NCBI GenBank assembly: GCA_964590105.1
Contig: CAZPYM010000004.1
Coordinates: 52,198-116,197, forward strand
From: an uncultured Gammaproteobacteria bacterium
Lineage (GTDB): Bacteria > Patescibacteriota > Patescibacteriia > UBA11705 > JABHMO01
Length of the DNA: 64,000 bases
Reading direction: 5' to 3'
The notes beneath the pieces were generated by a model. The model did not search any database. It saw nothing but the letters and a program-made list of their open reading frames with translations, and had not been told where the DNA came from. Each line of letters starts with the position of its first letter. Positions within the stretch are counted from its first letter, which is position 1. Made by a program: the position numbers and the translations under genes. Shown here in pieces: positions 3,507 to 49,470 of this stretch.

Positions 3507-3550
3507 AGGCTAAGAAAGAGATAGAGGTGTGAAGAGGCGAGAATTGAGAA

Positions 3551-3770
3551 AAAATTACAAAATACAAACCACAAATTACAAACAATGGGGCCAAAATTAC
3601 AAAGTCCAAACAAAAATGCGGAGAATAAAATACTAAAGCATAATCTATCACGGGACAACTAAGTTTATTATTTCAATTTATGATTTGTGATTCGTAATTT
3701 ATTCTTTGTAATTTGCTTGTAATTTGTTATTTTCGCCATAGGCGGACGAGTGCAATTTGTAATTTACTCC
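3551..3770. repeat. attacaaa-type heptamer-like repeat arrays in inverted arrangement (long imperfect palindrome)
   Basis: Left arm aaaattacaaaatacaaaccacaaattacaaacaat... versus right arm ...tttgtaatttgcttgtaatttgtt. Related attacaaa arrays at 9655-9715, 10290-10330, 20945-20990 and 38905-38965. Confidence 0.5.
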
Positions 3771-4702
3771 TCCTTCCTCTCTCGAACCCAATCTATTGTT
3801 TTTTTAATCCCCTGTTCAATAGAAGTTTGCGGTTCCCAATTTAATTCCCTTTTAATTTTTTCATAACTAAGACAACTGACTGCTTGGCCTGAAAAAACTT
3901 CCGCATGCTTAGGGGTCAGAGGAGAATGCAATTCATCTTTAATAAGCTTAAAAAGTTCATTAACAGTTGTTTGTTTAGCTGTGCCGACATTATATGTGCC
4001 CGATCTTTCGCTTTGAAAAGCCGCCATATTCGCCCGGACAATGTCGCCCACATACACATAGTCGCGCGTCTGGTGGCCGTCGCCGTGAATTATCGGGGTT
4101 AAGTTGTCCAACATTTTCTCAGCAAAAATGGAAATCACACCGGCTTCGCCCTTTGGATTTTGGCGCGGGCCGTAAACATTGGCATAGCGCATGATGGCAA
4201 ATTCCAAACCAAATTGCCGGCGGTAAAAACGAATATATTTTTCCAGCGCCAGCTTGGCCAGGCCGTATGGTGACAACGGTTCGCAGGGATATTTCTCGGG
4301 TGTTGGAACAACTTCCGCTTCGCCGTAAAGAGCGCCGCCGGTGGAGGAAAACAAAATTTTCTTAACTTTATTCTGAAGGCAAAGTTCAAGCACGTTGAGC
4401 CCGCCGAGGATATTTACATCCGCGTCAAACAACGGATCTTCAACTGAACGATTGACGCTGATCTGGGCGGCAAAATGAAACACATATTCCGGCCGCTCCT
4501 TTTCAAAAACTTCAGCTAGCGCTTCTTCACGAATGTCTGTTTTATATATTCTCGCGTTCGGATGCACATTTTTTTCCGAGCCACTGGAAAAATTATCAAC
4601 AACGGCGACGGAATAGCTTTCTTTGATCAGGGCGTCAACCATGTGCGAACCGATAAACCCCGCGCCGCCGGTAACAAGAACAGTTTGTTTGTTTAATACC
4701 AT
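3764..4702 (-). CDS. NAD-dependent epimerase/dehydratase (GalE-like UDP-sugar epimerase, SDR family)
   Basis: N-terminal Rossmann motif VLVTGGAGFIGSH. Catalytic SPYG...K spacing (PLSPYGLAKLALEKY). 312 aa. Confidence 0.75.
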   Translation of the reverse strand: MVLNKQTVLVTGGAGFIGSHMVDALIKESYSVAVVDNFSSGSEKNVHPNARIYKTDIREEALAEVFEKERPEYVFHFAAQISVNRSVEDPLFDADVNILGGLNVLELCLQNKVKKILFSSTGGALYGEAEVVPTPEKYPCEPLSPYGLAKLALEKYIRFYRRQFGLEFAIMRYANVYGPRQNPKGEAGVISIFAEKMLDNLTPIIHGDGHQTRDYVYVGDIVRANMAAFQSERSGTYNVGTAKQTTVNELFKLIKDELHSPLTPKHAEVFSGQAVSCLSYEKIKRELNWEPQTSIEQGIKKTIDWVRERKEE

Positions 4703-10334: not shown

Positions 10335-10425
10335 GAAAAAGGTGAAAGTTAAAAGATAAAAGGTAAAAGTTAAAATCGAAATTCAGTTTACACAATTAAC
10401 CTAATTAACTTAATTAACTTTCCTA
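10335..10425. repeat. composite intergenic repeat: (g)gtaaaag units, then tcgaaattcagtttacacaattaacc, then a taattaact array
   Basis: Near-identical composite copies at 20163-20262 and 36428-36580. A reverse-orientation copy lies upstream of the plus-strand SPFH gene (59570-59700). The ttaattaact arrays alone occur at 4729-4790 and 5305-5493. Confidence 0.6.
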
Positions 10426-10470
10426 CATTAACCCGAGCGAGGAGGAACGACGAGTCGAGGGTCGCGTTTT

Positions 10471-11157
10471 TCACCGCACCCGACAATCGAGGAACCACTC
10501 TTTGAACGGCTGCAAAATCTCATTAAGTTCCCTCTTAGTATAGGTTTTTTCAGAAGTAAAATTCTGATTGACCAGCTTGGCGGACGGACGAAATTGCTGC
10601 AGATAATACTTGCGCGATCCCTTGAGCTGCTGCGCCATCGCTTCAATATCCTCATGGGAATGCAGCGCTGGCAGCACGGTAGAACGAAATTCATAATCAA
10701 TCTTGCCCTGCTTTAATATCATAACACTTTTTTTGATTTTTGATAAGTCTATCGGCCGGCAAACAACTTTGGCGTATTTACGCCAGGGCGCTTTTATATC
10801 CATGGCTGCGTAGTCAACTAATTTTTTATCAATCAACTTTTGCAAAACTTCAGGATTTTGTCCGTTAGTGTCAATTTTAATTAAATATCCAAGTTTTTTT
10901 ATTTTTGTTAAAAAAGAAATAAGCCCGGTCTGAATAGTCGGCTCGCCGCCGGTAATACAAACCGCATCAAGCAATGACTGGCGGCCTTTCAAAAACTTCA
11001 ACACTGTGTCAGTGGAAATAACCCGAGCAATTCCTTTTACAATATCCGGATTATGACAAAAAGAGCAGCGAAAATTACATCCTATGGTAAATATTGTCGC
11101 CGCTACTTTGTCTGGATAATCAAGTAAAGTTGTCTTTTGGAGTCCGCCAATAAGCAT
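10471..11157 (-). CDS. nrdG: anaerobic ribonucleoside-triphosphate reductase activating protein (radical SAM)
   Basis: CNFRCSFCHNPD radical-SAM CxxxCxxC cluster near the N-terminus. ~228 aa. Immediately downstream of the nrdD pieces. Confidence 0.8.
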   Translation of the reverse strand: MLIGGLQKTTLLDYPDKVAATIFTIGCNFRCSFCHNPDIVKGIARVISTDTVLKFLKGRQSLLDAVCITGGEPTIQTGLISFLTKIKKLGYLIKIDTNGQNPEVLQKLIDKKLVDYAAMDIKAPWRKYAKVVCRPIDLSKIKKSVMILKQGKIDYEFRSTVLPALHSHEDIEAMAQQLKGSRKYYLQQFRPSAKLVNQNFTSEKTYTKRELNEILQPFKEWFLDCRVR

Positions 11158-11249
11158 AAAAATCCATGGTGAGTAGTGAGTGAAAAACAGGGATCTACCC
11201 TAATTTCTAGTTCCCAATTTCCAGCTTCCACCTATCTTCTTTATCCTAT

Positions 11250-11396
11250 TCAAATTTTTGTTAAAACTTTGTTAAATGTTTTACGATCGTTGAATTCTGC
11301 TTTTTTACCGTCGTTCCAACGATGAATCGGACTCAGATAACCAACTACCCGAGAATAAACTTCACATTTTTGTCTTTGCAGTTTTTGTAATGACAT
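11250..11396 (-). CDS. mini-ORF (48 aa) encoding the class III RNR glycyl-radical motif, detached from the nrdD body
   Basis: Hand translation gives MSLQKLQRQKCEVYSRVVGYLSPIHRWNDGKKAEFNDRKTFNKVLTKI. The RVxGYL...WNxGKxxE..R pattern matches the C-terminal glycyl-radical region of NrdD (T4/E. coli type RVCGYLG...). Strong SD (AAGGAGGAG) 4 nt upstream of the ATG. Below the 60-aa cutoff of the ORF track. Confidence 0.5.
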   Translation of the reverse strand: MSLQKLQRQKCEVYSRVVGYLSPIHRWNDGKKAEFNDRKTFNKVLTKI

Positions 11397-11495
11397 ATCT
11401 CCTCCTTTTTTTTACGCCGACGCGCGAACCAGCCACGAACAACCGATAAGCTTTGCCTTGGCGCATGTTATGAATTATGTTCTTTTTTGATAATT

Positions 11496-11678
11496 AATTA
11501 TTCTAATTATTCTAATTCCTCTAATTGCCCTAATTATTCTAAATAAGCTCCGGGCGCCAAATCCCAAATTTCAATTTTCAGATTCAGAAATTAGAATAAT
11601 TGGAATATTGGGATTTATTTAGGTTAATTATCCCAAAGGGATCACTTTGGGATAATAATTAGGTTAATTAGAATAATT
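11496..11678. mobile_element. MITE-like long imperfect palindromic element with ~22-bp terminal inverted repeats, inside the nrdD split
   Basis: Left arm aattattctaattattctaatt versus right arm aattaggttaattagaataatt (reverse complements match about 20 of 22). Central perfect hairpin tatcccaaag-ggatca-ctttgggata at 11626-11652. The internal halves are also mutually inverted. Confidence 0.4.
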
Positions 11679-11707
11679 TACTCAGCAAAAGTCAAACGTT
11701 CCTCGCG

Positions 11708-13786
11708 CTACGAGTTATTAATCACTGATTTTTGTTCTGTTTTTATTACTTTGTCAATATAGCCCATCTCTTCATCGCAGTAAGGACAGAATTCATGCTC
11801 ACCTTCAATATATCCATGCGTCGGGCAAACACTGAAAGTCGGCGTAATAGTAAAATATGGCAAACGAAAATTTTCCGCTATTTTTCTAACCAAAGATTTG
11901 GTGCTCTCGGCCGACGGAAGTCTCTCGCCCACAAAACCATGCAAAACAGTCCCGCCGGTATAACGCGTCTGCAAATCGTCCTGCAAGCGCAAAGCCTCAA
12001 AAATATCATCAGTATGGCCGACCGGCAGCTGGGTGGAATTGGTATAGTATGGAGCCGCCTTGGTGCTTTTGTAAGATTCTTCATTGGCAACTATTATGTC
12101 TGGAAATTCTTCCTTGTCAATCCGGGCAAAACGATAAGCCGTGCCTTCGGCCGGGGTGGCTTCAAGATTAAAAAGTTCATTGGTTTCATTTTGATAATCC
12201 ATCAGGCGCTCCCGCATAAAATCCAATATCTGGCGGGCGAATTTGTGGCCTTCCGGAGTGGTAATATCATTGCCCCCCCCTAACAGATTCAAACAAGCTT
12301 CATTAACACCATTTAAACCAATTGTATTAAAATGATTTTTCCAGTACTCACCGAATCTTTCTTTAATCCCACTAAGGTAATGCCTGGAATAAGGATATAA
12401 ACCTCCTTCAGTGAATTTTTCAAGCGCATTTCTTTTTATTTTCAAACTCTTTTTCGCGAGGTCCATCAGGTCAGCCAGCCGGCTGAAAAATTCTTCCTTG
12501 TCTTTTGATAAATAACCGAGACGTGGCATATTGATCGTGACTACGCCAATACTGCCGGTAAGAGGATTGGCGCCAAATAGTCCCCCGCCTCTTTTTCTGA
12601 GTTCACGATTGTCCAGGCGCAACCGGCAACACATACTCCTCGCATCTTCCGGTTTCATATCTGAATTAATAAAATTGGAAAAATATGGAATGCCATACTT
12701 GGCTGTCATAGCCATGATCTTTTCAATAATCGGCGCGTCCCAATCCCAGTCAGAAGTCACATTATAAGTGGGGATCGGCCAACTAAGCACTCGCCCCTTG
12801 CGGTCGCCCTCTGTCATCACTTCGACAAATGCCTGATTAAACATGTCCATTTCTTTTTGAAATTCGCCATAGGTCTCTTTTTGCGGCTCGCCACCAATAA
12901 TTACCGGCTCTTTTGCCAAAGTTGAAGGGACAAACAAATCAAGTGTTACATTTGTAAATGGGGTTTGAAAACCAACTCGCGTCGGCACATTGATATTGAA
13001 TAAAAACATCTGCACTTGCTGTCTGACTTGTTCGTAATTAAGTCCGTCATAGCGAATGAATGGCGCGGCCAAAGTATCCAGATTGGAAACAGCCTGAGCG
13101 CCGGCAGCTTCCCCCTGCAAGGTGTAGAAGAAATTAACCAGTTGACTAAGGGCGGTGGTGAAATGCTTTGGCGGCTTGCTTTCTACCTTGCCGCGCACAC
13201 CGCCAAAACCCCTCATTAATAAATCCTTGAAATCCCAGCCACAGCAATACGGAGCCAAAAGCTGTAAATCATGAATGTGAAGATTGCCTTTGGTATGAGC
13301 ATCTTTGATATCCGGCGAATATACTTTGTTCAGCCAATAATTGGTGCTGATGGATGAGGCTACGAAATTATTCAACCCTTGCAAAGAATAGTCCATGTTG
13401 CTGTTTTCTTTGACTTTCCAGTCCAGCTGCTTCAAATAGCTCTCCATCAACTCGTCCGAATTAATAAGCGACTTGATATCCCTCATCTTGGCATGCTGGT
13501 CGCGATAAATAATATAAGCTTTAACTACCTTGATCAGCTTGTTTTCAATCAGAATTTCCTCAACAATATCCTGAATCTCTTCGACAGCAGGGATAGATCT
13601 TTCGTGAAATTTTTGATTTAAACGCTCAACAACCTGATCTGCTATTTGTTCAGCTTTTCCCTTATCTGGCTGGCTGGTTGCCCTCATGGCATTGAAAACA
13701 GCCAGAGCAATTTTGCTCTGATCAAAATCAACAATCCGATCATCGCGCTTTCTGATCTGAATAATTTTGTTTGCAGTGTATACCAT
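11708..13786 (-). CDS. nrdD: anaerobic ribonucleoside-triphosphate reductase (class III), body lacking the glycyl-radical motif
   Basis: N-terminal ATP-cone (VYTANKIIQIRKRDDRIVDFDQSKIALAV). Large catalytic barrel. C-terminal Zn ribbon CPTHGY...CPYCDEE. No RVxGY glycyl-radical motif before the stop. Confidence 0.85.
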   Translation of the reverse strand: MVYTANKIIQIRKRDDRIVDFDQSKIALAVFNAMRATSQPDKGKAEQIADQVVERLNQKFHERSIPAVEEIQDIVEEILIENKLIKVVKAYIIYRDQHAKMRDIKSLINSDELMESYLKQLDWKVKENSNMDYSLQGLNNFVASSISTNYWLNKVYSPDIKDAHTKGNLHIHDLQLLAPYCCGWDFKDLLMRGFGGVRGKVESKPPKHFTTALSQLVNFFYTLQGEAAGAQAVSNLDTLAAPFIRYDGLNYEQVRQQVQMFLFNINVPTRVGFQTPFTNVTLDLFVPSTLAKEPVIIGGEPQKETYGEFQKEMDMFNQAFVEVMTEGDRKGRVLSWPIPTYNVTSDWDWDAPIIEKIMAMTAKYGIPYFSNFINSDMKPEDARSMCCRLRLDNRELRKRGGGLFGANPLTGSIGVVTINMPRLGYLSKDKEEFFSRLADLMDLAKKSLKIKRNALEKFTEGGLYPYSRHYLSGIKERFGEYWKNHFNTIGLNGVNEACLNLLGGGNDITTPEGHKFARQILDFMRERLMDYQNETNELFNLEATPAEGTAYRFARIDKEEFPDIIVANEESYKSTKAAPYYTNSTQLPVGHTDDIFEALRLQDDLQTRYTGGTVLHGFVGERLPSAESTKSLVRKIAENFRLPYFTITPTFSVCPTHGYIEGEHEFCPYCDEEMGYIDKVIKTEQKSVINNS

Positions 13787-15187: not shown

Positions 15188-15230
15188 AGTTTTATCAAAA
15201 AAAAGACGTTAATAGCGCCTCCTTTGGTAT

Positions 15231-15369
15231 CAAACCCAAAGCCCAAAACTCAAAATTCAAAGGAAATTCTAAATTCAAAATATAAAATCAAAAGTAACAC
15301 CTTGGAATTTTAAATTTTATTTTTGGAATTTCCTTTGTGCTTTGGATTTTGAATTTTGGGCTTTAAAAG
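15231..15369. mobile_element. long imperfect palindromic element (family with ttttgaattttgggctttgg-type arms)
   Basis: Left arm caaacccaaagcccaaaactcaaaattcaaagg and right arm cctttgtgctttggattttgaattttgggcttt are mutual reverse complements (imperfect). The inner halves ggaaattctaaattcaaaatataaaa and ttttaaattttatttttggaatttcc are also inverted. Related copies at 45951-46088 and 51775-51900. Confidence 0.4.
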
Positions 15370-20115: not shown

Positions 20116-20257
20116 AGGATTATGTTAGAGTTAAAAGTTTCCGCCAAAGGCGGCTGCGCCTATGGCGCAAAAAGGTAAAAGGTAAAAGTTGAAAATCAAA
20201 ATTTAGTTTACACAATTAACCTAATTAACTTAATTAACTTGATTAACTTTATTAACT

Positions 20258-21064: not shown

Positions 21065-24000
21065 TTAATATATTGCCGGCCCCTTGCAGGTGGCAACTGC
21101 GCCAACTAAATCACCAAGGTTTGCCGAAAGAGTTGTCTCGTCCCCGAGGAAAAATAATCCACCTGTATCATCGGCATATTTTTTGAAAAAAGCCTCTTGA
21201 TTCACTGTCGGAGGACTCCCGTCTTTGCGAATATAAATCAAATGGATGTTAGCATTCTGCTCTTGGGCCAAAGCAATGTCCGCATTTCGAAGCGGCTCAT
21301 CACCTGTGTCACTAGCATCAGTAATCAAAATATAAGTTACTCTATCATAATCACCCTTAATTAAATTTGCGGCCTGAAATTCAACATCTATCCATTTTGC
21401 CATATTACCTGCGCCAACATAGCTTGATGTATTTATTTGGTCCTTCACAAATTGAGGCTCATTGCTTACCGGATCAACTAGCTTAACCTGACTATTTGAC
21501 GTCCAGCCAGCACTCCCGGTAAAACCCGCTCCTGATTGCTGCACCAAATAATAATCGTCCCCATCAAGAACTGTATGCGCCGCATCAACAATTGTGTTCA
21601 AAATTGTTCGATGATACTTTGTTACATCGTTTCCAGGATTATTGTCCATACTTAAGCTTCCATCTATAAAGAATACAAATAATGTCTTGTCGCAACCAGC
21701 TTCTGATTCCGCATCATACTCGTCATTGTCATCGGAAGTTGCGCAACCGAGATCATTGGGATAATCAATAAGTCCGTCACTGTCATTATCAAGCCCGTCT
21801 TTGCACTGCGGCACCTCACCCACTTCTGCCTGCGACGGCAGAGGCTGCCAACCGGAGTCTCCACCGCCCCAGCCTGGCACGAATTTATAGGAATACATAG
21901 GCGATGCATCCTCTTCTAAACTCGGGACTTCAAGGCTGAATTGCAGATCATAAGCAGAGGTATTCCCGGTTTCAAGAGGGTCAACTAGATATGAATACAC
22001 TGAATGCAAGTTTGGGTTTGTATCGTAAAAATTGGAGAACTTCTGATTGGCGCTATTGTAGCAAGTTTGCATATCATAACCAACCGGACAATTAACGCAA
22101 AACTCCTGCGGAACCACGCACTGATAGTCACTGGCTGATCCGCCCACCGGACAAGAATACGTATTTTCACCCGACCCGCCGCATTCCACGCCAGGATTTT
22201 CCTTGGTCGCCTGTTCCCAGGCAAAATGATTAAGCGGATCTGTTGGCAAAGTTTGTCCGAGCGCTTTGCCCAATTCTTTTTGCCACGACGGCCAGATACT
22301 GAAACTGCGTCCGCGCACGTATGTGCCCGCGTCAAGCAAAGGCGCGGCTCCATTGTGCGGCGGCGTTTTTTTGTACAATTCAATGTAGGCGCGCGTCAGC
22401 ACCATATCGCTGATTCTCTGCGTGTCCCTGATAAGCTCTGGTTTAACAATAGAAAGATTATTGGTCACTATATCAGTATTAAACCACAACAAATTTACCA
22501 GCTGGCTATAAATATTTTGAGTGGCCGCGTTCGATCCCTGCGAATAGCCGAGAACATAGATATTATTATAAATATTTACCACATCATCAGCATTGACGGG
22601 CGCCATATTGCTGGCCGCCGCGTAAACCGTGGTGCCGTCCTTGGCGCCGGTATAACAATACTTGCCAAACCGATCCTGCTGACAGTCAATTTTTACCTCT
22701 GCGGTAGTAGGCGCGGGATTTGGCGCGTAGCGCTGATACCAAATATCAGGCGGTAGAGCTTCTGGGTTTTCATAAATTCGAAGTGAAATCACGTCTGATG
22801 AATAATCATTGGTCGGGCCGGCTGATTTGTCGCGGACAAAGAAATATTGTTCAAAAAGCTCCGGATCTTCCCAAGGATCAGTGTCACTTTTGCATTTATG
22901 ATCGCCAATATCAATCAGCCCGTCGCTGTCATTATCTATACCATCATTGCACTGGTTTTCCGTGTCCTGCGCCAGCTCTTCCCAGATATTTTCGGCTCCG
23001 CCAATTAATCCCTTTTCTTTGGCCAATTCAGTCAAATTAATAATATAAAAATTTTCGTTCGGATCGCATTTTGAATCAATATAATCAACTGTGCATTTTG
23101 AAATCGAAGCCAACCCTTTGACATCATTTATATTTTCATCAAATTTCCAATAGCCAACCAAATTCGGCTCGCCCAACGGATTGACGAGATCTTCTGTCTG
23201 CGGATCCTTGGCAATATTCCAAATACGAAAATCATCCACATAGCCAGCCAGAGAAACCAGAGGGACTTGCGTTTTACCAAGTCCGCCGATAAACAAGCTT
23301 TGATAATCATTATCAACGGTGACGTCTTTTTCCGCTTGATTTCTGGGCCAGACATGCAAAACAGTATTTTCATTATCAGCCGGTGTTACGTCCACGCCAT
23401 TAACATACAAGGTTGTATTACCGCCAGCACCATCATATTTTAACGCAATGTGATTAAATCCTTTGCTCAATAAGCCAACTCCATCAGTTGTTGCGCGAAC
23501 AATACCATGAGTTGGCGTCTTTATCGTATAGATGATTGATGCTTTTTCCTCAGCGCAAGTGCAATTATTTGAGTTCGGCCCGTTTTCATACGACCACTCG
23601 CAATCATCGTCGCAATCCAAGCCCCATTTTCGCAAAGCCATCTGCACATGATTATTTGTTTTTCCGTCCTCAAAAGTACTGCTATCGCTTAAATTTTTAT
23701 AAAATATTCTGGCATATCTGTCTTCCGGAATTTCTTCGCTGTACAACCAAGTTTCAATTGTCCATGGATTATTTTCATTATTCATGAAACTCAAATTGCC
23801 GCTTCCTGAATCAGGAACCTTCACATAATCAAATGACTTGTCAAAATATATGCCGTAGCGCGGTTTGGGCGCTTTGCCGGCAAACTCAACTTCGCCGATT
23901 TCCAGTTTTGGCAAATCGTCTTCAAAACCAGGTCCGCCAAAATCACGGCAATAGAACAAGCCGACGTTAAAATTATTTTCGTAAATATAAGTTGTGTGAT

Positions 24001-27000
24001 ACTCGCCCGGCTTTATTTCTGATTGCATTTTTGACCATTTATTATTGCCTTCCTTGTCCGGCGCATAGGCTGCCGGCTCCCACAAATGATCGCAAAGGGT
24101 CACGTTCAAAAGCGCGGTGCCATATTTTTGCGCGCCGAGCGTACCGAGCGCGCCGCCGGTCAGTGGACTCGCTTCGGAAATGTTATCCTTGGTCACCACA
24201 ACATTGGCCATAATAGTGGCCGAGCCATTTTTCGCCAGATTACGAACATTGACAAAGTCGCTATCTTTTTTCTGGTTTGAAAGAGGTTGAATCGGCTCAT
24301 CAACGCAATCAGAACCATCCATTTTACAAGTATGAACAGAATCAACAATAGACATGTCGCTAGCCGTCCAGTCCCACACCCATTCATACGTTCCTGGCAT
24401 TTCTGTTAATTTCTGCTCTCCGCTTCTGGCCGTGGCCCTGAATGTATTGGTTTGATTGGCTTTTGTTACGAAAACCTGTTGCGGCTCAACAATCACATTA
24501 TCAAGCAGACAAATACTGTCGCCGGCAACAAAATTTAATTCAAGATTTACCGGCTCATAGGTTTCATCGCAATTATTTTTCAAGTTTGAAAATTTTAACT
24601 TATACTGCTTGCCGACCTGTAGCACTTGCTTTGGCGTAATGCTAAAATTAGTGTTCCCGACTATATTAGTCGACTCATTCATAGTCATCCCGACCTCGCA
24701 CTCCACAGTGGCTGCAAATCCGACTTTGACTAATAAATTTCGCACAAATTCTTTTGCTTTTGAATACCACGATCCCGCGCCCTGCGACAAGCCTGTCGGA
24801 CAACTACCGTCAGACATTAGATATAATTTTATAATAGCTTCGTCAGAATAAACTTTTTTATTAAAAGAAGTATAAAGCATAGCATTCGGACAAACATCAA
24901 CCGAGCCATTGACCGGTGAGCTCGCGGCATCATCAAAACCAAGCCCCGCCGTAGCTTCGCAAATTATTGGATCAATTATCGAATCATCTTTTTTACTCCA
25001 ATCATCAATATGCGGCAAAATATCTTTATATTTATTAATCAAATCAGGATCATTGGTTCTGAATGCAAAGTCTCCCATTCCGACCTGCGCCTCATCAGCT
25101 GGGTTTTCTTTAGTTGAAGTTTGAATCTCAGTATCGCCGATAATATATCCGGTTGCTACATCATAGAAAAAATTATTTTGCGTTGCGCCGGACTTCAAAG
25201 TTCCGTCCTCATTAAAGTAAACAGAATCCAAATAAACTTCCAAACCGCTCGGAACTGAAGTCGCCATTTGATACGGACTGCCATTCTGTCCATTGCTAAG
25301 GCCTATCGTGCACAACCCGGCATTTATTTCTGCCTGACTGCATTCGCAAATCAGATCCTCTCCAGCCTCCGGCGTACCATTGTTGCAATATGAAGGATTA
25401 TCATACGCATATGAAGAACCCAGATTTAAACATTTGGCGCTACAATAATCAGGCAGGGCGCAGGCACAATCATCTTCACCAAATAAACAAGAGACATATT
25501 CACTGCCGTCCAATTTTTTGCAAGTTGCTTCGCACTCTTCGTCATTCTTGCCATCGCCGTTATAATCCTCGGGTATTCCGTTGCCGCAACAATTGGAACA
25601 CTCACAATCAGGCGAACCAGCTAAGCACGCTTCGGTCTTGCTACCGGTAGCGCAATCTTGGGCCGACACAGCGCAAGACAAGGACAATATTTGTTTTCCG
25701 ACCTCGCCTTGACATGCTGCACAAGAAATCTTTTTCGCGCCGTCTTTTTCACAAAAAGGATTTGTCCCTTTATCGCAACAATCCGCATCAGTTCCTTTGT
25801 TGCACAGTATTTCAATCTGGCCACCTGCGCATTGATTGCAGTCAAGAATTTTTTGGCCGTCACAATCAGGATCATCTTGAAAACACGTTTCTTCTTTATA
25901 TCCGTCAGCGCAGCCATTTGTAACACCCACAATACAGTTGATTGTTTTTGTCTCGCACTCCTCGTCTTCTTGACACGGAATATCCACCGTACCGATACAG
26001 TCCGCTCCCTCGTTGCAAGCGACCTGTTTTTTGCCCACGCATCCGGGATCGCCGGCTTCACTAGCAGAACAAGCAATTTCCTTAGTACAATTACTAGTGC
26101 AAGTCGGGAAGCCTTTCCAAACGCAAGTATTGGTGCAATTGGACTCGCCTTCGCATTCTTCGCCAACCTCTAGAACGCCATTGCCACAAACTGCCGCGGC
26201 TAATTGTTCGCCGAGCTTATAGGCAGATCCTTTATATAAACATTTTTCATTTAATCCTGCTTCGCTGTTTTGCCCACCGAAATCAGCGTCTTCGCCGGAT
26301 TCTTTTTTTCCATTGCCACAAACAAAACCAGCCGCTGTTCCGGTATTCAAACAACCGGCTGTGCAGGCTGATCCCTTGGCCACGCAAGAGCAACCTTGTA
26401 ATCCGGACACCGGCACACAGGCCTGGCCATTAACATCCAGATAATCACAACCTTGGTCGCATTCTTCACCGGGCTCGATCTCGCCATTACCGCAACAATT
26501 AGACTGGGTCTTCGGATCAGCGCAATTGGCCAATGGTTCGCGGAGGCAAATCTCACTGCAGCCATCTTCATTTTCTATATTGCTGTCATCGCATTCTTCA
26601 CCCGGCTCAATCTCGCCATTGCCGCAAACAGCGGCAAAGGGAGTACTGCCAATCGCCTGGCATTTGTCATTGCAATACGGTTTAGTTTCCACCCCGAGGA
26701 GAGTATTGGTAATGCTGGCCACTACCGGCTTGGTACTCAGCCAATCCCAATCATAAGCAAAGGCGTCCAAAAGCTGACCGCTGGCACTGCATTCATCAGG
26801 CGCGGAATATGGCGCGGCCCAGTATTCAACTTTTTCTTTTTCCTGCTCCGACATATATTCTACCGGTGCGGTTTCCACGCGGTCTATTTTGCATTCTTCA
26901 GGATCATCTTTTGTTTTAAATATCCAACTAAAAGCGTCATATTGTCCGCTCGCGCCAATTTCAAATGATGACACAAAAGCGCACTGCGGATCCGGGGCTA

Positions 27001-30000
27001 GATATTCGTTTTCTGTTTGAATTGTTTCCAGTTCTGCCTCGTCAGTAATCACAGCATTATTTTCTTTTAAATTAACACAGGCAAACTGGATATTTTCGTC
27101 ATCCTGACAATTCGGAGTTTTAGAAATTTCAGCAAAAGAAACAATTATACCGGCCGCCTGGTCATAACAGCCGCAGAGATAATCAAGGTTTTTGTCTTCC
27201 GCTCCCACAGCTGAATAACCGCCGCTCACATCCGCTTTGCCGTCGGCGTCATCGTCTTTTCTATTGCCGCAGTCTCCGCCGGGCGCGTTCCCGGTGCTAT
27301 AATTCAGACCGGTCAAATTAACTCCGCTGTAACTTTTTACTCCATTCGTCACAACCATGCGATAATAAGTATTTGGCTCCATTTTATTCGGATGAAGAGA
27401 AATTTTCAATTCATGAATTGACGTGCCGTAATATGGATTCTCCACTTCCTGATAATCAATCTTGCTTTGATCCAGACCAAAATCAGTCAAAACTACGCAA
27501 TCTGACGAATAGCACGAATAAAGCTTGACTGTTTCCGGCATGAAGCTGTCCTTGTCCATGAAAGTATTAAAATTCGCGCCAATACTGGCATTAATACAGG
27601 CAAAATTGCAATTAGGATAATAGGAAATTATTTTCGGGTCAGCAAATTTAACTTTCAAAAAACCTTTTTTATATAAACTGTCAAATGTATCTTTTAATGG
27701 ATCATCTTGTGTCAACTCAGCTTCAGCCGCTATTTCCATTGGTTTGCCCGGAGGAGTTTCAAATGTCTGCCCCTGTCCGAGCTCTGACAAAGACTTCAAC
27801 TGAAAATACCCCGAACTGCTGATAAATTCTTTAGGAGCTTGGCAAATCAGGCCATCCGCTGGCTCAAAACAAGCATAGCCGGCAAATTCTGCTTTCTGCT
27901 TGTCTATGTCTTTGACCATATCCCACTGCCAATCCTTGTCGCTAAGACCGATTTCCTGGCACTGGTATTGGCCGGAAACAGTATATTTTTGCTTGCCGTC
28001 AATAGTTTTAATCAATCCGACCAGCGGACTCATTAGCAATTTATCCGGCACGCAATTCTCGCTTTTGGTTTTAAATTTCCAAGTGTAATCATTGAGCATA
28101 TTGACATAGCCCTCGAAAAAATCGCTGTAAGCGCTCACGCCGCCAGTACCGCCTTTTATTGTCACTTGATACCAAGTGTTTTCGTGTAGATTATGATTGC
28201 CTTCCTGCACGATAGAAGGAACCAAGTCATTTCCTTCGTTTAATAGTGAAGAATCCAAGCTGAATGCTGTCACCTGGTCTCCAATACAAAAACAATTATC
28301 TTTATTTATTTCCGGATCGCAAGTTTCATTACCCGGCTGTCCGTCAATATAGCAAGACAAATTAAGGTTAGTTAAATTAAAATCATTGGAATGCGCGTTG
28401 GTTATTGTCCGCGAAACGCAGTCATTTGGATTGCAAATATCAAAATTACATTCCCCGCCTTGAGTATTTAAGCATCTTTTTATTATAATATTATTTTGAA
28501 AACTATTTGCCTCGGGATCAGTCTTCATTATCATGTTGAAAGTAGCTGAAATAAGGCCGTTCGGACAGGCGTTAGTAGTATTTTTAAATGGCGACGGCGA
28601 CTGCGTATACTGTCCCGGCCAACAGCTCCTCTCAATCACTCGCGGATAAGTCGGCAAGGGGCCAGTACTCATCATCCACATGTATTCGGATGGCTCATAG
28701 CCAACCTCCACCGTACAAGTACCAACCGTCTGACAAACGCCGGTAGAACAACATTCTTCGCCCTCTGCGCAAGAGTTGGCGCTACAACTGCCTACAGTAA
28801 ATGAAACTGAATTACTCTGTTTTTGATCACTTTTCACAAAAACACCGCCGGACAAAGCTTTCTCCGGCACTACCGCATTTTCAATCAATATGGCCGACCA
28901 ATCGCCAAAGCTGGTCGCGATCCCCGGATCCGGAACCTTTGCGCATTGGCAAGTTTCATCCTCGTCTATGTCGCACGGAGCCACGCCATCCGGACAATTG
29001 ATCTTTGGCCCGCCGGTTTTGGAAAAATACACCTCACCTTCATTACCAAAATATTCGCCTTTAAAATCCACGCCAATGCCTTCAGGGCCATTATTCGGAT
29101 CAAGGAGACAAAGCCCTGGACCAGGAGGCCCTTCCACAATTTCATAATCATACGGATCGGTGACCAAACCCTGAGAAGTATATAAAACTATTTTGTATTC
29201 ATCGCTGTAAGCGCTCTCATCGGACAAAGCAGGGCTCGCAAAAGTGTTTAATATTGTTTCCGGAATTTTTATGACAACCTCACTGTCAGACCAGCTTTCC
29301 GGTCCGCAGCCAATCGCCGTAATCCAATCGTAATTGTCGCCGCCAATTAATCGATGAATCTCCACGTGTCCTGTATCATTACCAAAATATTGTCCTGAAA
29401 TAGTAATCAATTGCCCGATTGGCGCGGGCGCCGGCTCCACCATGTCAATTTTTGGCAGATTTTCTGATGGCACTATTTCAAATCGCACTGGATTGCTATA
29501 CAGATTTTTGCAAAGGCAATCAGCTATATTTTCTGGTGTTTGCTCGCAAACTGCTTTAGTTGTTTTATCCAAGCATTGTGGGCCTTTATCAATTACTGTA
29601 TTTTTTTTGCCTTTTTCTAATAACGGAATCTGCAGACTCAAAATTGTTTCCGGACTCCAAGCAAATCCAGCCCCCTGCAAAAAGTTAATGCCCCCGAGAA
29701 ATGCGGCATCGTCATCATCTTTCTGGCCGAAATTATTGCCGCCAACTCTTACTAAATTATTTACCGCCCCTTTATCGCAATGAACTTCAGGTGTCGGTTG
29801 ACAGCCCTGTAGTGTGACAGAACACAAACCAGGATAATTAATATTTGAATCAACAATAAAATCGCCTACCCAGCCGTCGTCATCATCAGTCGTGTCTTCA
29901 TTATTTAAATAATTAACAACCTTAATTGGGCCGGTAATCGCCTGCGCCGGCACTTTGGCAATTATTTGATAATTATTCCAAGCTGAACTAGCCTGACAGC

Positions 30001-36427: not shown

Positions 36428-36626
36428 AAGTTAAAAGTTAAAAGGTAAAAGTTAAAAGTAATGAAGGGTGGGAAAAGGGAAAAGATGAAAGTGAAAGAGA
36501 AAAACAAAAAGGGAAAAATTAAAAGGGAAAATCGAAATTCAGTTTAGTCAATTAACTTAATTAACCTAATTAACTGAGCTTACTCAAATTATGCGTCCCG
36601 TGCTACACGCTACGCGCTATGCGACT

Positions 36627-43512: not shown

Positions 43513-44020
43513 CGCTTCCTCCTTAAAATGTTAACTTCAAAGCTCAAAGCTAAAAACCAACATTCAAATTGATTTGCAACTTTCAACTATTAAAATACTT
43601 GATTTACGTGATTTATTACGTGATATTACATGATAATCACGAACAATATCTTGGCGCGAAGCTATCACCTCTCATTACGTAGCCATCACGTAAACCACGT
43701 CTTTTATAAAAAAACAGCTGACCCGCACAATCAAGCTTACCAGCTCAAGTTCCTTCAGTAAACTGACTGAACTTGACTTGCGGTTACTCCACAGCATAGG
43801 AGGGGACACTGCTTTTCTCCACTGGCAAGCATGATTTCACGGACCAGCTTGTATAATATGATACAGAATTGCTGATCAAACTTGTTTCATCCAGATTTTA
43901 TATTATCCCCGATTAAGTTGTCAAGGATTTCTCATGTAATTAACCATTTCATTATATCATATTTTTGACAAAAAGTCAATAGGCGATTAATAATTCAAAA
44001 TGCTTTGGCTTAAATTAAAC

Positions 44021-44044
44021 AAAAACGCCCCGCTTTGGCGGGGC
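44021..44044 (-). terminator. rho-independent terminator for the 44051..44725 gene (stem cgccccgc/gcggggc, loop tttg, A-run on the plus strand)
   Basis: Read directly. Confidence 0.55.
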
Positions 44045-44050
44045 AGTTTA

Positions 44051-44725: not shown

Positions 44726-44860
44726 GATTACCTCCTTGGTGAATTATTCTAATTGTTCTATTTGAACTTTCCGAAAACCAGTGTTATCATAACATAATGC
44801 AAAAGAAGGGCAAGACACCGTAAATACAGACGCAAAATTTTACGTCTCTACTCATCACCT

Positions 44861-49069: not shown

Positions 49070-49324
49070 CTTTTACCTCCGCGTAGATTTCAAGCCAAGT
49101 TAAGAGATCATTGTCAACAAACAATATTCATCCGAGATTACCACGCAAAAATCGTTTTGTCAATAAGGCAAAAACTAAAAATTGGAAATTGGAAATTAGG
49201 ATTGAAGCCGATAAATTTTTCAGCCAACCGCAACCCCGGTTTCGAATTTCCAGTTTCCAATTTCTTTCCCCGCATTTGACAAACTTTTTCATGTCTGTCA
49301 TATTAACACGTGAAAAACGCAAAC

Positions 49325-49462
49325 GAATTAAGAGATTAAGTTAATTACGTTAATCAAGTTAATTGAGTTAATCGAGCCCCCTTAAATTCTCTAATTCGCT
49401 AATTCTCTAATTAGCCAATTCACTAATTCGCTAATTCACTAATTCGCTTAATCTCTTAATTC
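49325..49462. mobile_element. 138-bp palindromic element with perfect 16-bp terminal inverted repeats and internal 9-10-bp tandem units, ending 9 nt before the topA ATG
   Basis: Left gaattaagagattaag (49325-49340) is the exact reverse complement of right cttaatctcttaattc (49447-49462). The interior has gttaatNNN repeats in the left half and ctaattNNN repeats in the right half. Confidence 0.45.
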
Positions 49463-49470
49463 GCTTTTTT

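What the first reader, a model, noticed from the sequence alone, without database searches (positions are those of the whole stretch)
11397..11707. TIR-bounded palindromic (MITE-like) element occupies the gap that splits nrdD
- The spacer between the nrdD body and the radical mini-ORF holds an ~180-bp element.
- It has ~22-bp imperfect terminal inverted repeats: aattattctaattattctaatt and aattaggttaattagaataatt.
- It has a perfect central hairpin at 11626-11652 (tatcccaaag-ggatca-ctttgggata) and internally inverted halves.
- Its ctaatt units resemble the other intergenic repeat families in this genome.
- This suggests the split arose by insertion of a miniature mobile or palindromic element into an ancestral contiguous nrdD. 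The reading frames were then repaired by a new stop, SD and start.
- The alternative is that the element is a self-splicing intron.
Basis: seen in the sequence. Interest (0 to 1): 0.65.

Follow-up and report, generated by a model that had tools for sequence, protein, structure and literature searches.

The report
Palindromic repeat element in nrdD spacer
A real 183-bp palindromic repeat element lies between the two pieces of a split anaerobic ribonucleotide reductase gene, but it did not cause the split; it is one copy of a widespread hairpin-element family, not found described in the literature I could search, that lodges between genes in Patescibacteria.

Summary
Window 11496-11678 is a 183-bp element. 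Its 22-nt ends match 20/22 as inverted repeats, better than all 100 shuffles. The ends are tandem arrays of 9-bp CTAATT-type units. The 'central' hairpin (11627-11656) lies inside the right arm.

The causal reading fails. Of 72 resolvable relatives, 61 have the same split (NrdD body plus a ~48-aa glycyl-radical mini-protein). Their spacers are unrelated in sequence and run from -53 to 411 nt (median 58.5). Removing the element leaves 128 nt, within the range of the closest relatives. Rfam finds no intron, and the mini-ORF has its own Shine-Dalgarno site and start codon.

'MITE-like' is partly right. The same arms and inner motif recur in many metagenome contigs, including Nealsonbacteria and Moranbacteria. 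Hairpin-type members there sit flush between a stop codon and the next start codon. Some contigs carry several copies; one has two ~270-nt, largely identical copies. Eight loci have the same arms around a PF05635 (23S rRNA intervening-sequence protein) gene.

Best reading: an ORF-less, intervening-sequence-like palindromic element in a pre-existing spacer. Cutting of its RNA stem by RNase III is inferred, not shown. No target-site duplication or transposase was found.

The parts
11708..13786 (-). nrdD body (692 aa): ATP-cone, catalytic barrel and Zn ribbon. It ends ...CPYCDEEMGYIDKVIKTEQKSVINNS* and has no glycyl-radical domain.
   Evidence: Pfam NRDD positions 1-537 of 562 plus ATP-cone. NCBIfam NF006126 positions 3-663 of 684.
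11397..11707 (-). 311-nt intercistronic spacer between the body's stop codon and the mini-ORF's start codon
   Evidence: Second longest spacer in the set of 63 split loci (62 other loci plus this one; only L007, 411 nt, is longer).
11496..11678 (.). 183-bp palindromic element bounded by inverted arrays of 9-bp units
   Evidence: It folds about equally on both strands (+ -61.8, - -55.7 kcal/mol).
11495..11542 (+). Left arm: tandem array of TAATTATTC, 5.3 copies (units ATTCT, CCTCT, GCCCT)
   Evidence: (family D1).
11559..11616 (.). Inner inverted repeat AAATCCCAAATTTCAATTT / AATTGGAATATTGGGATTT
   Evidence: pair I9; stem seen in the folds.
11607..11630 (+). Family inner-boundary motif ATTGGGATTTATTTAGGTTAATTA
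   Evidence: Found in many family members by BLAST. TTGGGATTTRTTTAG is exact in 13 other loci (12 independent; L121 and L200 are the same locus).
11627..11656 (.). Perfect 12-bp stem with 6-nt loop (ATTATCCCAAAG GGATCA CTTTGGGATAAT), inserted inside the right arm
   Evidence: (I11). Look-alikes in intergenic DNA of L045 and L018.
11654..11678 (+). Right arm: inverse array AATAATTAG / GTTAATTAG / AATAATT
11415..11464 (-). G+C-rich hairpin in the residual spacer, just upstream of the mini-ORF's ribosome-binding site
   Evidence: Fold. Analogous hairpins occur in relatives' spacers without sequence conservation.
11399..11405 (-). Shine-Dalgarno GGAGGAG, 2 nt before the mini-ORF's ATG
   Evidence: Read directly from the sequence.
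11250..11396 (-). Mini-ORF (48 aa) carrying the glycyl-radical motif EVYSRVVGY
   Evidence: Pfam NRDD positions 531-562 of 562; NF006126 positions 649-682 of 684. 122 stand-alone homologues of 41-84 aa.
10471..11157 (-). nrdG activase (radical SAM)
   Evidence: TIGR02495 NrdG2, 210.9 bits against a cut-off of 131.

Best explanation
The 183-bp object is an ORF-less copy of a modular palindromic element family found across Patescibacteria.

Architecture of the family:
- Each arm is a tandem array of 7-9-bp units with a CTAATT core. The two arms are in inverted orientation.
- Inside lie a second layer of inverted motifs (CTAAATAAATCCCAAT ... ATTGGGATTTATTTAG), a variable centre, and optional small G+C-rich hairpins.
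- Members occupy the spacer between the stop codon of one gene and the start codon of the next co-directional gene.
- Longer relatives carry a PF05635 '23S rRNA intervening-sequence protein' gene between the same arms. This is the topology of rRNA intervening sequences (IVS).

In this genome one copy arrived, or grew, in a spacer that already existed. nrdD was split into a body and a separately translated ~48-aa glycyl-radical subunit long before. Without the element the spacer is 128 nt, like those of the nearest relatives.

Shown: family membership, the typical location, multi-copy behaviour in other genomes, the link with PF05635 cassettes, and the antiquity of the split.

Inferred: in the nrdD-mini-ORF-nrdG transcript the arms pair into a long A/U-rich stem. 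Like an rRNA IVS, this stem is probably a substrate for RNase III. The element would then be tolerated, and could separate the body message from the mini-ORF/nrdG message. The mini-ORF keeps its own Shine-Dalgarno site and start codon.

Unknown: how the family spreads.
For: Split predates the element:
- Of 72 resolvable NrdD relatives (62-85% identical), 61 have the same break. The body ends ...CDEE(M/I)GY..., and the mini-protein starts M..(K/R)Q.CEVYSRVVGY.
- Their spacers run from -53 to 411 nt, median 58.5, and are unrelated in sequence.
- Body and mini-ORF tile the NrdD profiles: Pfam 1-537 and 531-562; NF006126 3-663 and 649-682.
- 311 - 183 = 128 nt. Compare L001 at 128, L006 at 105, L004 at 103.

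Family membership:
- The exact 22-mer occurs in at least 120 metagenome contigs.
- Besides the window, 35 of them have an inverted partner within 330 nt and the same modular build.
- The unselected inner motif TTGGGATTTRTTTAG is exact in 13 of those loci (12 independent; L121 and L200 are the same locus). It is absent from the 80 NrdD-selected control loci.
- Named hosts are Candidatus Nealsonbacteria and Candidatus Moranbacteria. The window's own NrdD is nearest to a Kuenenbacteria sequence.

Location: of the 26 elements with both flanks resolved (window included), 24 sit between co-directional genes. The upstream stop codon is mostly within about 8 nt and the downstream start codon mostly within about 15 nt.

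Multi-copy behaviour:
- About 3-4 elements in each of three contig stretches of 11-13 kb (L134, L102, L210).
- L129 has two inverted ~270-nt copies that are largely identical, including unique interior sequence. They differ mainly in tandem-unit number.

IVS link:
- PF05635 genes (118-133 aa; E = 1.3e-15 for the one scanned) are flanked by the same arms in 8 loci. L168 holds an internally deleted remnant.
- The L116 cassette folds arm to arm around the ORF.
- IVS elements are bordered by inverted repeats, may carry this ORF, and are cut by RNase III (PMC4990558). PF05635 ORFs and short ORF-less inserts occur in rRNA genes of candidate phyla radiation (CPR) bacteria (PMC11270868).

Not an artefact: identical sequence in independent assemblies, five of which span the element.
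Against: - No target-site duplication is visible here or in family members.
- There is no second copy in the 64-kb window, only short related arrays. The rest of the genome could not be searched.
- PF05635 is not a known transposase.
- The two arms of one element are no more complementary to each other than to arms of other elements (0.635 against 0.618, permutation p about 0.09). The element also folds equally well on either strand. So there is no positive evidence that an RNA stem is under selection.
- Many unrelated tandem-repeat hairpins occur in other spacers of this genome and in relatives' nrdD spacers. A local mutational origin cannot be excluded.
- Two species both keep an element upstream of rpsP (L152, L188). 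That fits vertical retention or function as well as mobility.
Confidence: 0.65

Rival explanations
1. Purely local origin. The spacer accumulated short tandem repeats by replication slippage and acquired inverted symmetry by template switching. The resemblance to other elements reflects a shared mutational bias in AT-rich spacers, not common descent or mobility.
For: - The window has short-period arrays in most intergenic regions. Eight of 28 spacers have inverted repeats that beat all 30 shuffles.
- Relatives' nrdD spacers hold unrelated repeat-built hairpins, for example L089, L001, L021 and L007. Thirteen of the 32 spacers of at least 60 nt (the window's included) have z < -2.
- Copies differ in unit number.
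- Arms are not specifically matched within an element.
Against: - A non-repetitive 15-mer (TTGGGATTTRTTTAG) and the arm vocabulary are shared exactly with elements in distant lineages and unrelated loci.
- Two largely identical ~270-nt copies lie at different loci of one contig.
- The same arms flank a protein gene in 8 loci.
Confidence: 0.18
2. A selected cis-regulatory module of the nrd operon. It could be an internal promoter, an attenuator or terminator, or an array of binding sites for a DNA-binding protein. It would set the ratio of NrdD body to radical mini-subunit and activase.
For: - The arm next to the downstream gene carries repeated TAGAAT (-10-like) boxes. In many family members it ends 0-15 nt from a start codon.
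- The conserved feature of the arms is the CTAATT core rather than base pairing.
- The Falkowbacteria relatives L009, L010, L011 and L013 have a DnaA box and a promoter-like TATAAAAT in the same spacer.
Against: - It is absent from the same spacer in every other species examined.
- No -35 element was found, and the consensus scan gave only weak sites.
- The stem is A/U-rich and is not followed by a U-run, so it is a poor intrinsic terminator.
- Family members occur in either orientation relative to transcription.
Confidence: 0.12
3. One reading: insertion of a miniature mobile element into a contiguous nrdD created the split, followed by repair with a new stop codon, Shine-Dalgarno site and start codon.
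For: The element lies exactly between the two pieces. A few relatives have a contiguous gene (11 of 72). One of them (L037) reads ...CPKCDEDDMSPQKLERQKCEVYSR..., which resembles a fused form.
Against: - 61 relatives across many Patescibacteria lineages, and some archaeal bins, share the same break point with spacers of -53 to 411 nt that lack this element.
- Stand-alone mini-proteins number at least 122 clusters.
- No target-site duplication was found.
Confidence: 0.03
4. The spacer is a self-splicing group I or group II intron.
For: nrdD of phage T4 carries a group I intron (my own knowledge, not checked here). The spacer is structured (z = -3.5).
Against: - No intron family match at Rfam gathering thresholds or at E <= 10.
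- The body has an in-frame stop codon, and the mini-ORF has its own GGAGGAG site and ATG.
- The two ORFs overlap on the family profile, so no splice is needed.
- Homologous spacers of 4-60 nt or overlapping ORFs cannot be introns.
- 311 nt is far too short for group II.
Confidence: 0.02

Closest known systems
rRNA intervening sequences (IVS) with the S23p / PF05635 ORF (Leptospira, Coxiella; PMC4990558), and PF05635-bearing or short ORF-less inserts in rRNA genes of CPR bacteria (PMC11270868)
   Same: Terminal inverted repeats form a long stem around an optional PF05635 ORF. ORF-less short versions exist. Distribution is sporadic and the means of spread is unknown.
   Different: The elements here lie in spacers between protein-coding genes (one case flanks a tRNA gene), not in 23S helices 9, 25 or 45. 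Their arms are tandem arrays of 7-9-bp CTAATT units rather than unique complementary ends. RNase III excision is untested.
Correia elements (NEMIS/CREE) of Neisseria (from my own knowledge)
   Same: Small (about 100-155 bp) intergenic elements bounded by inverted repeats, often co-transcribed with neighbouring genes. Their RNA hairpins are cut by RNase III and their ends can act as promoters.
   Different: Correia elements have unique 26-bp terminal repeats, a TA target duplication and hundreds of near-identical copies. None of these was seen here.
BOX elements of Streptococcus pneumoniae (from my own knowledge)
   Same: Modular intergenic repeats with a variable number of internal tandem subunits and partly complementary ends that form stem-loops.
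   Different: BOX modules are 45-59 nt, not 7-9-nt units. There is no sequence relation and no associated ORF-bearing form.
REP / BIME / REPIN elements mobilised by RAYT transposases (from my own knowledge)
   Same: Palindromic, intergenic, located between co-directional or convergent genes, and occurring as inverted doublets that form hairpins.
   Different: REPs have a conserved GTAG head and a cognate RAYT gene. Neither was seen. Here the arms are arrays with variable unit number.
YfiD/GrcA spare-part glycyl-radical protein of pyruvate formate-lyase, and the split class II reductase NrdJa/NrdJb (context of the split, not of the element)
   Same: A small separate polypeptide carries the glycyl-radical domain (YfiD), and a ribonucleotide reductase is encoded as two chains (NrdJa/b; PMC9669993).
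   Different: Here the large chain has no radical domain of its own, so the mini-protein would be an obligatory subunit rather than a spare. Reviews state that spare-part proteins are known only for formate lyases (PMC13450708, PMC8683613).

Membership tests
MITE (miniature inverted-repeat transposable element) | Terminal inverted repeats | tested here: met
   20/22 complementary, beating 100 of 100 shuffles. The repeats are tandem arrays, so their boundaries are fuzzy.
MITE (miniature inverted-repeat transposable element) | Target-site duplication flanking the element | tested here: not met
   The flanks GATAATT| and |TACTCAG share no direct repeat. None is evident in 36 family members or in the two L129 copies.
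MITE (miniature inverted-repeat transposable element) | Small size and no coding capacity | tested here: met
   183 bp. The only ORF overlapping it is a 30-aa ORF made of repeat units.
MITE (miniature inverted-repeat transposable element) | Multiple similar copies in the same genome | tested here: inconclusive
   No second copy in the 64-kb window, and the rest of this genome could not be searched. In other genomes the family is multi-copy: about 3-4 elements per 11-13 kb in L134, L102 and L210, and two largely identical copies in L129.
MITE (miniature inverted-repeat transposable element) | A longer autonomous relative with the same ends that encodes a transposase | tested here: not met
   Longer relatives with the same ends exist, but they encode PF05635 (a four-helix-bundle IVS protein), which is not a recognised transposase.
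Group I / group II self-splicing intron | Match to the intron covariance models | tested here: not met
   No intron hit in Rfam 15 at gathering thresholds or at E <= 10 over 11100-11900.
Group I / group II self-splicing intron | Removal restores one continuous reading frame, with no independent translation signals | tested here: not met
   The body has a stop codon and the mini-ORF has GGAGGAG plus ATG. The two ORFs overlap on the profile. Relatives have spacers too short for an intron.
rRNA-type intervening sequence (IVS) | Complementary termini that form a long stem enclosing the insert | tested here: met
   Outer stem of 14 + 6 bp in the minimum-energy fold. In the ORF-bearing relative L116 a 22-bp stem joins the arms.
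rRNA-type intervening sequence (IVS) | Optional internal ORF of the S23p / PF05635 family | tested here: not met
   This copy has no such ORF (tblastn found nothing in the window). Eight relatives with the same arms do have one, and L168 holds a deleted remnant.
rRNA-type intervening sequence (IVS) | Location in 23S (or 16S) rRNA helices | tested here: not met
   It lies between two protein-coding cistrons. No rRNA was found in the window or in 20 family loci.
rRNA-type intervening sequence (IVS) | Excision from the transcript by RNase III without ligation | not testable with these tools
   Needs RNA end-mapping or in-vitro cleavage.
REP/REPIN | Conserved GTAG-headed 20-40-nt palindromic unit and a cognate RAYT gene | not tested
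   No GTAG-headed unit is apparent in the sequence. RAYT genes were not searched for.
Split (two-gene) class III ribonucleotide reductase, as context | Body and radical mini-ORF together cover the NrdD profile, each with its own translation signals, and the arrangement is conserved in relatives | tested here: met

The most novel reading that the evidence does not exclude
The element may be a visible tip of an undescribed class of genetic element. Under this reading, IVS-type cassettes (a PF05635 four-helix-bundle gene between inverted arrays of CTAATT units) and their far more numerous ORF-less derivatives colonise stop-to-start spacers throughout Patescibacteria. They would act as general intercistronic 'punctuation', excised or cut at the RNA level, so they can sit even inside an essential two-gene enzyme. 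The PF05635 protein would be part of their propagation machinery. The host gene adds a second novelty: an obligatory two-chain class III reductase whose glycyl-radical domain is a replaceable ~48-aa subunit.
Probability: 0.3. Interest if true: 0.72.

Novelty: new variant of a known kind. Interest (0 to 1): 0.5.

Why it matters
**Correcting the story.** The split of nrdD is ancient and conserved. It is not a recent accident caused by a mobile element, so the two-piece enzyme should be treated as a functional design.

**A testable link for intervening sequences.** The element connects spacers between protein-coding genes to the long-puzzling rRNA intervening sequences and their PF05635 ORF. Neither their function nor their means of spread is known. 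A family with many ORF-bearing and ORF-less copies in compact genomes offers comparative material to address this.

**Practical consequences.**
- These repeat-built palindromes break short-read assemblies.
- They inflate intergenic regions.
- They sit directly against start codons in genomes with few Shine-Dalgarno sites, so they matter for gene calling and operon prediction in candidate phyla radiation (CPR) genomes.

Tried and rejected
- **Introns.** Rfam over the whole window and a permissive scan of 11100-11900 found no intron, riboswitch or sRNA family.
- **Promoters and terminators.** The consensus scan gave only weak, unconvincing sites in the spacer.
- **Second copy in the window.** Pattern searches and sensitive BLAST found only short related arrays.
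- **Central hairpin in metagenomes.** An exact 40-mer around it had 0 hits, so this organism appears to be missing from that collection.
- **Strand asymmetry as a sign of RNA-level selection.** None was found: + -61.8 against - -55.7 kcal/mol.
- **Arm-to-arm matching.** Complementarity within elements compared with between elements was not significant.
- **Leaderless-promoter idea.** It rested on missing Shine-Dalgarno sites next to the elements. It was weakened because such sites are rare in those genomes generally: 13% against 11% background.
- **Near-identical whole elements in different contexts across contigs.** Only arm-level similarity was found, apart from the L129 pair and one duplicate locus.
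- **rRNA genes near family members.** None in 20 loci.
- **PDB search with the junction peptide.** No hit.
- **Literature.** Searches for a split NrdD in CPR bacteria, and for intergenic palindromes in CPR or Parcubacteria, found nothing relevant.

Full report
**What is at the coordinates.** All relevant genes read on the minus strand. They are the nrdD body (11708-13786, 692 aa), a 311-nt spacer (11397-11707), a 48-aa ORF with the glycyl-radical motif EVYSRVVGY (11250-11396), and nrdG (10471-11157). The body matches Pfam NRDD positions 1-537 of 562, and the mini-ORF matches 531-562. On NCBIfam NF006126 the two cover 3-663 and 649-682 of 684. nrdG passes the NrdG2 cut-off. The mini-ORF is preceded by GGAGGAG two bases before its ATG. 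This is therefore a cleanly split gene, not a truncated one.

**Checking the observation.**
- The spacer contains a 183-bp element at 11496-11678. Its ends, AATTATTCTAATTATTCTAATT and AATTAGGTTAATTAGAATAATT, are 20/22 complementary.
- No dinucleotide shuffle out of 100 reached that score; the best were 18 and 19. The 22-mer with up to 3 mismatches occurs five times in the window against zero expected.
- The ends are not unique sequences. They are tandem arrays of 9-bp units: TAATTATTC 5.3 times at 11495-11542, and inverse arrays at 11589-11611 and 11654-11678.
- The perfect hairpin is at 11629-11654, or 12 bp at 11627-11656. It interrupts the right arm rather than forming the centre.
- The spacer folds to -79.2 kcal/mol, z = -3.5. 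The element folds about equally on either strand.
- The sequence is identical in independent assemblies from three sources, five of which span the element.

**Did the element split nrdD? No.**
- A scan of one genome per species returned 80 loci encoding NrdD relatives at 62-85% identity, almost all from Patescibacteria.
- In 61 of the 72 loci that could be resolved, the gene is split at the same place. The body ends ...CDEE(M/I)GY plus a short variable tail. A separate ORF begins about ten residues before CEVYSRVVGY.
- Adding the closest relative found by exact-protein look-up (L089; mini-protein 91% identical) gives 62 split loci. Their spacers range from -53 (overlapping ORFs) to 411 nt, with a median of 58.5. 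Only one other is 200 nt or more.
- The spacers are unrelated in sequence.
- A protein search with the mini-ORF returned 122 clusters of stand-alone proteins of 41-84 aa, from Patescibacteria and several other bacterial and archaeal lineages.
- Subtracting 183 bp from the 311-nt spacer leaves 128 nt. The nearest relatives have 128, 105, 103 and 90 nt. The element sits in a spacer that was already there.

**Is it an intron? No.**
- Rfam finds no intron, at gathering thresholds over the window or at E <= 10 over 11100-11900.
- The body has its own stop codon, and the mini-ORF has its own ribosome-binding site.
- The two products overlap on the family profile.
- Many relatives have spacers far too short for an intron.

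**What is the element?**
- Within the window it has no second copy. Only short related arrays occur (44741-44763) and a shared 14-mer with arrays at 10394, 20214 and 36558.
- The window is full of other repeat-built hairpins. Eight of 28 intergenic regions have inverted repeats that beat all shuffles, and most carry 7-10-bp tandem arrays. At this stage a local, slippage-driven origin looked likely.
- A metagenome scan changed the picture. The exact 22-mer occurs in at least 120 contigs.
- Besides the window, 35 of these have an inverted partner within 330 nt and the same modular build. The outer arms are made of AATTATTCT, AATTGACCT or AATTAACCT units. The opposite arms are made of AGGTTAATT, AGGTCAATT or AGAATAATT units. 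An inner layer reads CTAAATAAATCCCAAT ... ATTGGGATTTATTTAG, and the centre is variable.
- The inner 15-mer TTGGGATTTRTTTAG was not part of the query. It is exact in 13 of those loci (12 independent; L121 and L200 are the same locus) and in none of the 80 control loci. The window copy carries it at 11608-11622.
- Two host proteins could be named: Candidatus Nealsonbacteria and Candidatus Moranbacteria. With the Kuenenbacteria-like window, the family spans distant Patescibacteria.

**Behaviour of the family.**
- Of the 26 elements with both flanks resolved (window included), 24 lie between co-directional genes, in either orientation. The upstream stop codon is mostly within about 8 nt and the next start codon mostly within about 15 nt.
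- Single contigs hold several members: about 3-4 in each of three contig stretches of 11-13 kb (L134, L102, L210).
- L129 has two ~270-nt copies in opposite orientation at different loci. They are largely identical, including unique interior sequence, and differ mainly in the number of tandem units. That is a dispersed repeat, with slippage after duplication.
- Two species both keep an element upstream of rpsP, with conserved arms and a diverged centre.
- No target-site duplication is visible anywhere.

**The link to intervening sequences.**
- In eight loci the same arms flank a complete gene of 118-133 aa. [quoted passage not shown] The left array follows the upstream stop codon, and the right array, preceded by TTGGGATTT.TTTAG, abuts the next start codon.
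- L168 has the arms around an internally deleted remnant of this gene.
- A ninth case among the control loci (L024) has a PF05635-like ORF between inverted arrays of different units.
- Folded as RNA, the L116 cassette pairs arm with arm in a 22-bp stem around the ORF.
- This is the architecture of rRNA intervening sequences. Those are bordered by complementary ends, may encode S23p, are excised by RNase III, and have long been suspected of mobility (PMC4990558).
- PF05635 ORFs and short unclassified ORF-less inserts are reported in rRNA genes of candidate phyla radiation (CPR) bacteria (PMC11270868).
- I found no paper describing such elements in spacers between protein-coding genes.

**Mechanism.**
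- Shown: family membership, typical location, multi-copy behaviour, association with PF05635 cassettes, and the antiquity of the split.
- Inferred: the element was acquired by, or expanded in, the existing spacer. Its transcript forms a long A/U-rich stem (14 + 6 bp outer helix plus inner hairpins). By analogy with IVS and Correia elements this stem may be cut by RNase III. That would make it harmless, and possibly separate the body message from the mini-ORF/nrdG message.
- Against an RNA-structure role: arms of one element are no better matched to each other than to arms of other elements (0.635 against 0.618, p about 0.09), and there is no strand asymmetry. What is conserved is the CTAATT core. 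This leaves room for a DNA-level role, such as protein binding or promoter-like TAGAAT boxes facing the downstream gene.
- Shine-Dalgarno motifs are rare in these genomes, so their absence next to the elements says nothing.

**Comparison with known families.**
- The closest are rRNA IVS: same topology and same optional ORF, but a different location and array-type arms.
- Correia elements share the co-transcribed intergenic inverted repeats cut by RNase III. They have unique terminal repeats and a TA duplication.
- BOX elements share modular tandem subunits.
- REPINs share hairpin doublets between genes, but have a GTAG head and a RAYT transposase.
- As a MITE in the strict sense the element fails on target duplication and on a transposase-encoding parent. 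'MITE-like' describes how it looks, not a demonstrated membership.

**Verdict.** The proposed history, that insertion split nrdD, is wrong, and so is the intron alternative. It is best filed as an ORF-less member of an IVS-like palindromic element family that appears to be undescribed outside rRNA genes. That makes it a new variant of a known kind. Interest is moderate for the element itself. The conserved two-chain class III reductase around it is arguably the more important observation. Reviews state that separate glycyl-radical 'spare-part' proteins are known only for pyruvate formate-lyase (PMC13450708, PMC8683613).

Noticed in passing
window 11250-11396 and 11708-13786; loci L001-L080: The split of NrdD into a body and a stand-alone ~48-aa glycyl-radical protein is conserved in 61 of 72 resolvable relatives. 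It also appears as 122 clusters of 41-84-aa proteins from Patescibacteria, several archaeal bins, Synergistales and Elusimicrobia. Reviews say separate glycyl-radical 'spare-part' proteins are known only for pyruvate formate-lyase, so this obligatory two-chain class III reductase seems undescribed.
   Followed up: partly
L116, L124, L137, L100, L208, L139, L102, L153 (and L168, L024): Genes of the PF05635 '23S rRNA intervening-sequence protein' family (118-133 aa) sit between inverted arrays of CTAATT-type units. The cassettes lie flush between neighbouring genes. L168 holds an internally deleted remnant, and L024 has the same layout with different repeat units.
   Followed up: partly
L009, L010, L011, L013: spacer between nrdD body and mini-ORF: These Falkowbacteria-type relatives all carry a perfect DnaA box (TTATCCACA, seen as tgtggataa) just after the body's stop codon. 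It is followed by a promoter-like gttataaaata. This suggests an internal, DnaA-controlled promoter for the mini-ORF and nrdG.
   Followed up: no
L089-L093 (closest other species): The NrdD body carries a 322-aa insertion after ...PTRVGFQ. It begins with Cys and ends ...ITGN, followed by Thr, which looks like an intein. The window's gene lacks it.
   Followed up: partly
window 10391-10460, 20170-20240, 36470-36600: A true dispersed repeat is present (94% identity over 71 nt between the first two copies). Its sequence is AAGTTAATTAAGTTAATTAGGTTAATTGTGTAAACTGAATTTCGATTTT.ACTTTTACCTTTT. It lies just downstream of minus-strand genes, including nrdG.
   Followed up: partly
window 3507-3763, 15188-15369, 43573-44050, 49280-49470: Other intergenic regions are long hairpins built from different short tandem units, with fold z-scores down to -6.8. 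The region 49324-49465 uses 8-bp CTAATTCN units and ends 8 nt before the next start codon.
   Followed up: partly
window 11415-11464: A G+C-rich hairpin lies immediately upstream of the mini-ORF's ribosome-binding site. Structurally analogous but unrelated hairpins precede the mini-ORF in several relatives (L001, L009, L011, L013, L046).
   Followed up: no
L134 3712-4032: A tRNA gene (3924-3996) is flanked on both sides by CTAATT-type arrays. The family is therefore not restricted to spacers between protein-coding genes.
   Followed up: no
L129 11712-11999 and 8365-8634: The interior of these elements contains runs of CCCTAAA/TCCTAAA (about 8 units) and their inverse. Centres of different elements carry different private tandem repeats, for example CTATAAA five times in L105.
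   Followed up: no
L095, L106, L113, L115, L117, L119, L127, L128, L132 and others: About a third of the contigs with the 22-mer have a different context: the 22-mer is followed by TCTTTCC(G/T)ATAAA. These look like an unrelated repeat family that shares the 9-bp unit.
   Followed up: no
window-wide; family loci: Shine-Dalgarno-like motifs are scarce upstream of ORFs: 26% against 6% background in the window, and 13% against 11% in the family loci. The mini-ORF's strong GGAGGAG is therefore unusual for this genome.
   Followed up: partly
L086, L087, L088 (contig ends at window 11397, 11440, 11470): Several short-read assemblies of the same organism break inside or at the edge of the nrdD spacer, and others break at 10385-10391. 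These repeat regions hinder assembly.
   Followed up: no
L037: One relative has a contiguous NrdD reading ...CPKCDEDDMSPQKLERQKCEVYSRVVGY... It resembles a fusion of a body end with a mini-protein start. It is either an ancestral intermediate or a secondary re-fusion.
   Followed up: no
window 21065-31939: A single 3624-aa ORF lies on the minus strand. It was not examined.
   Followed up: no
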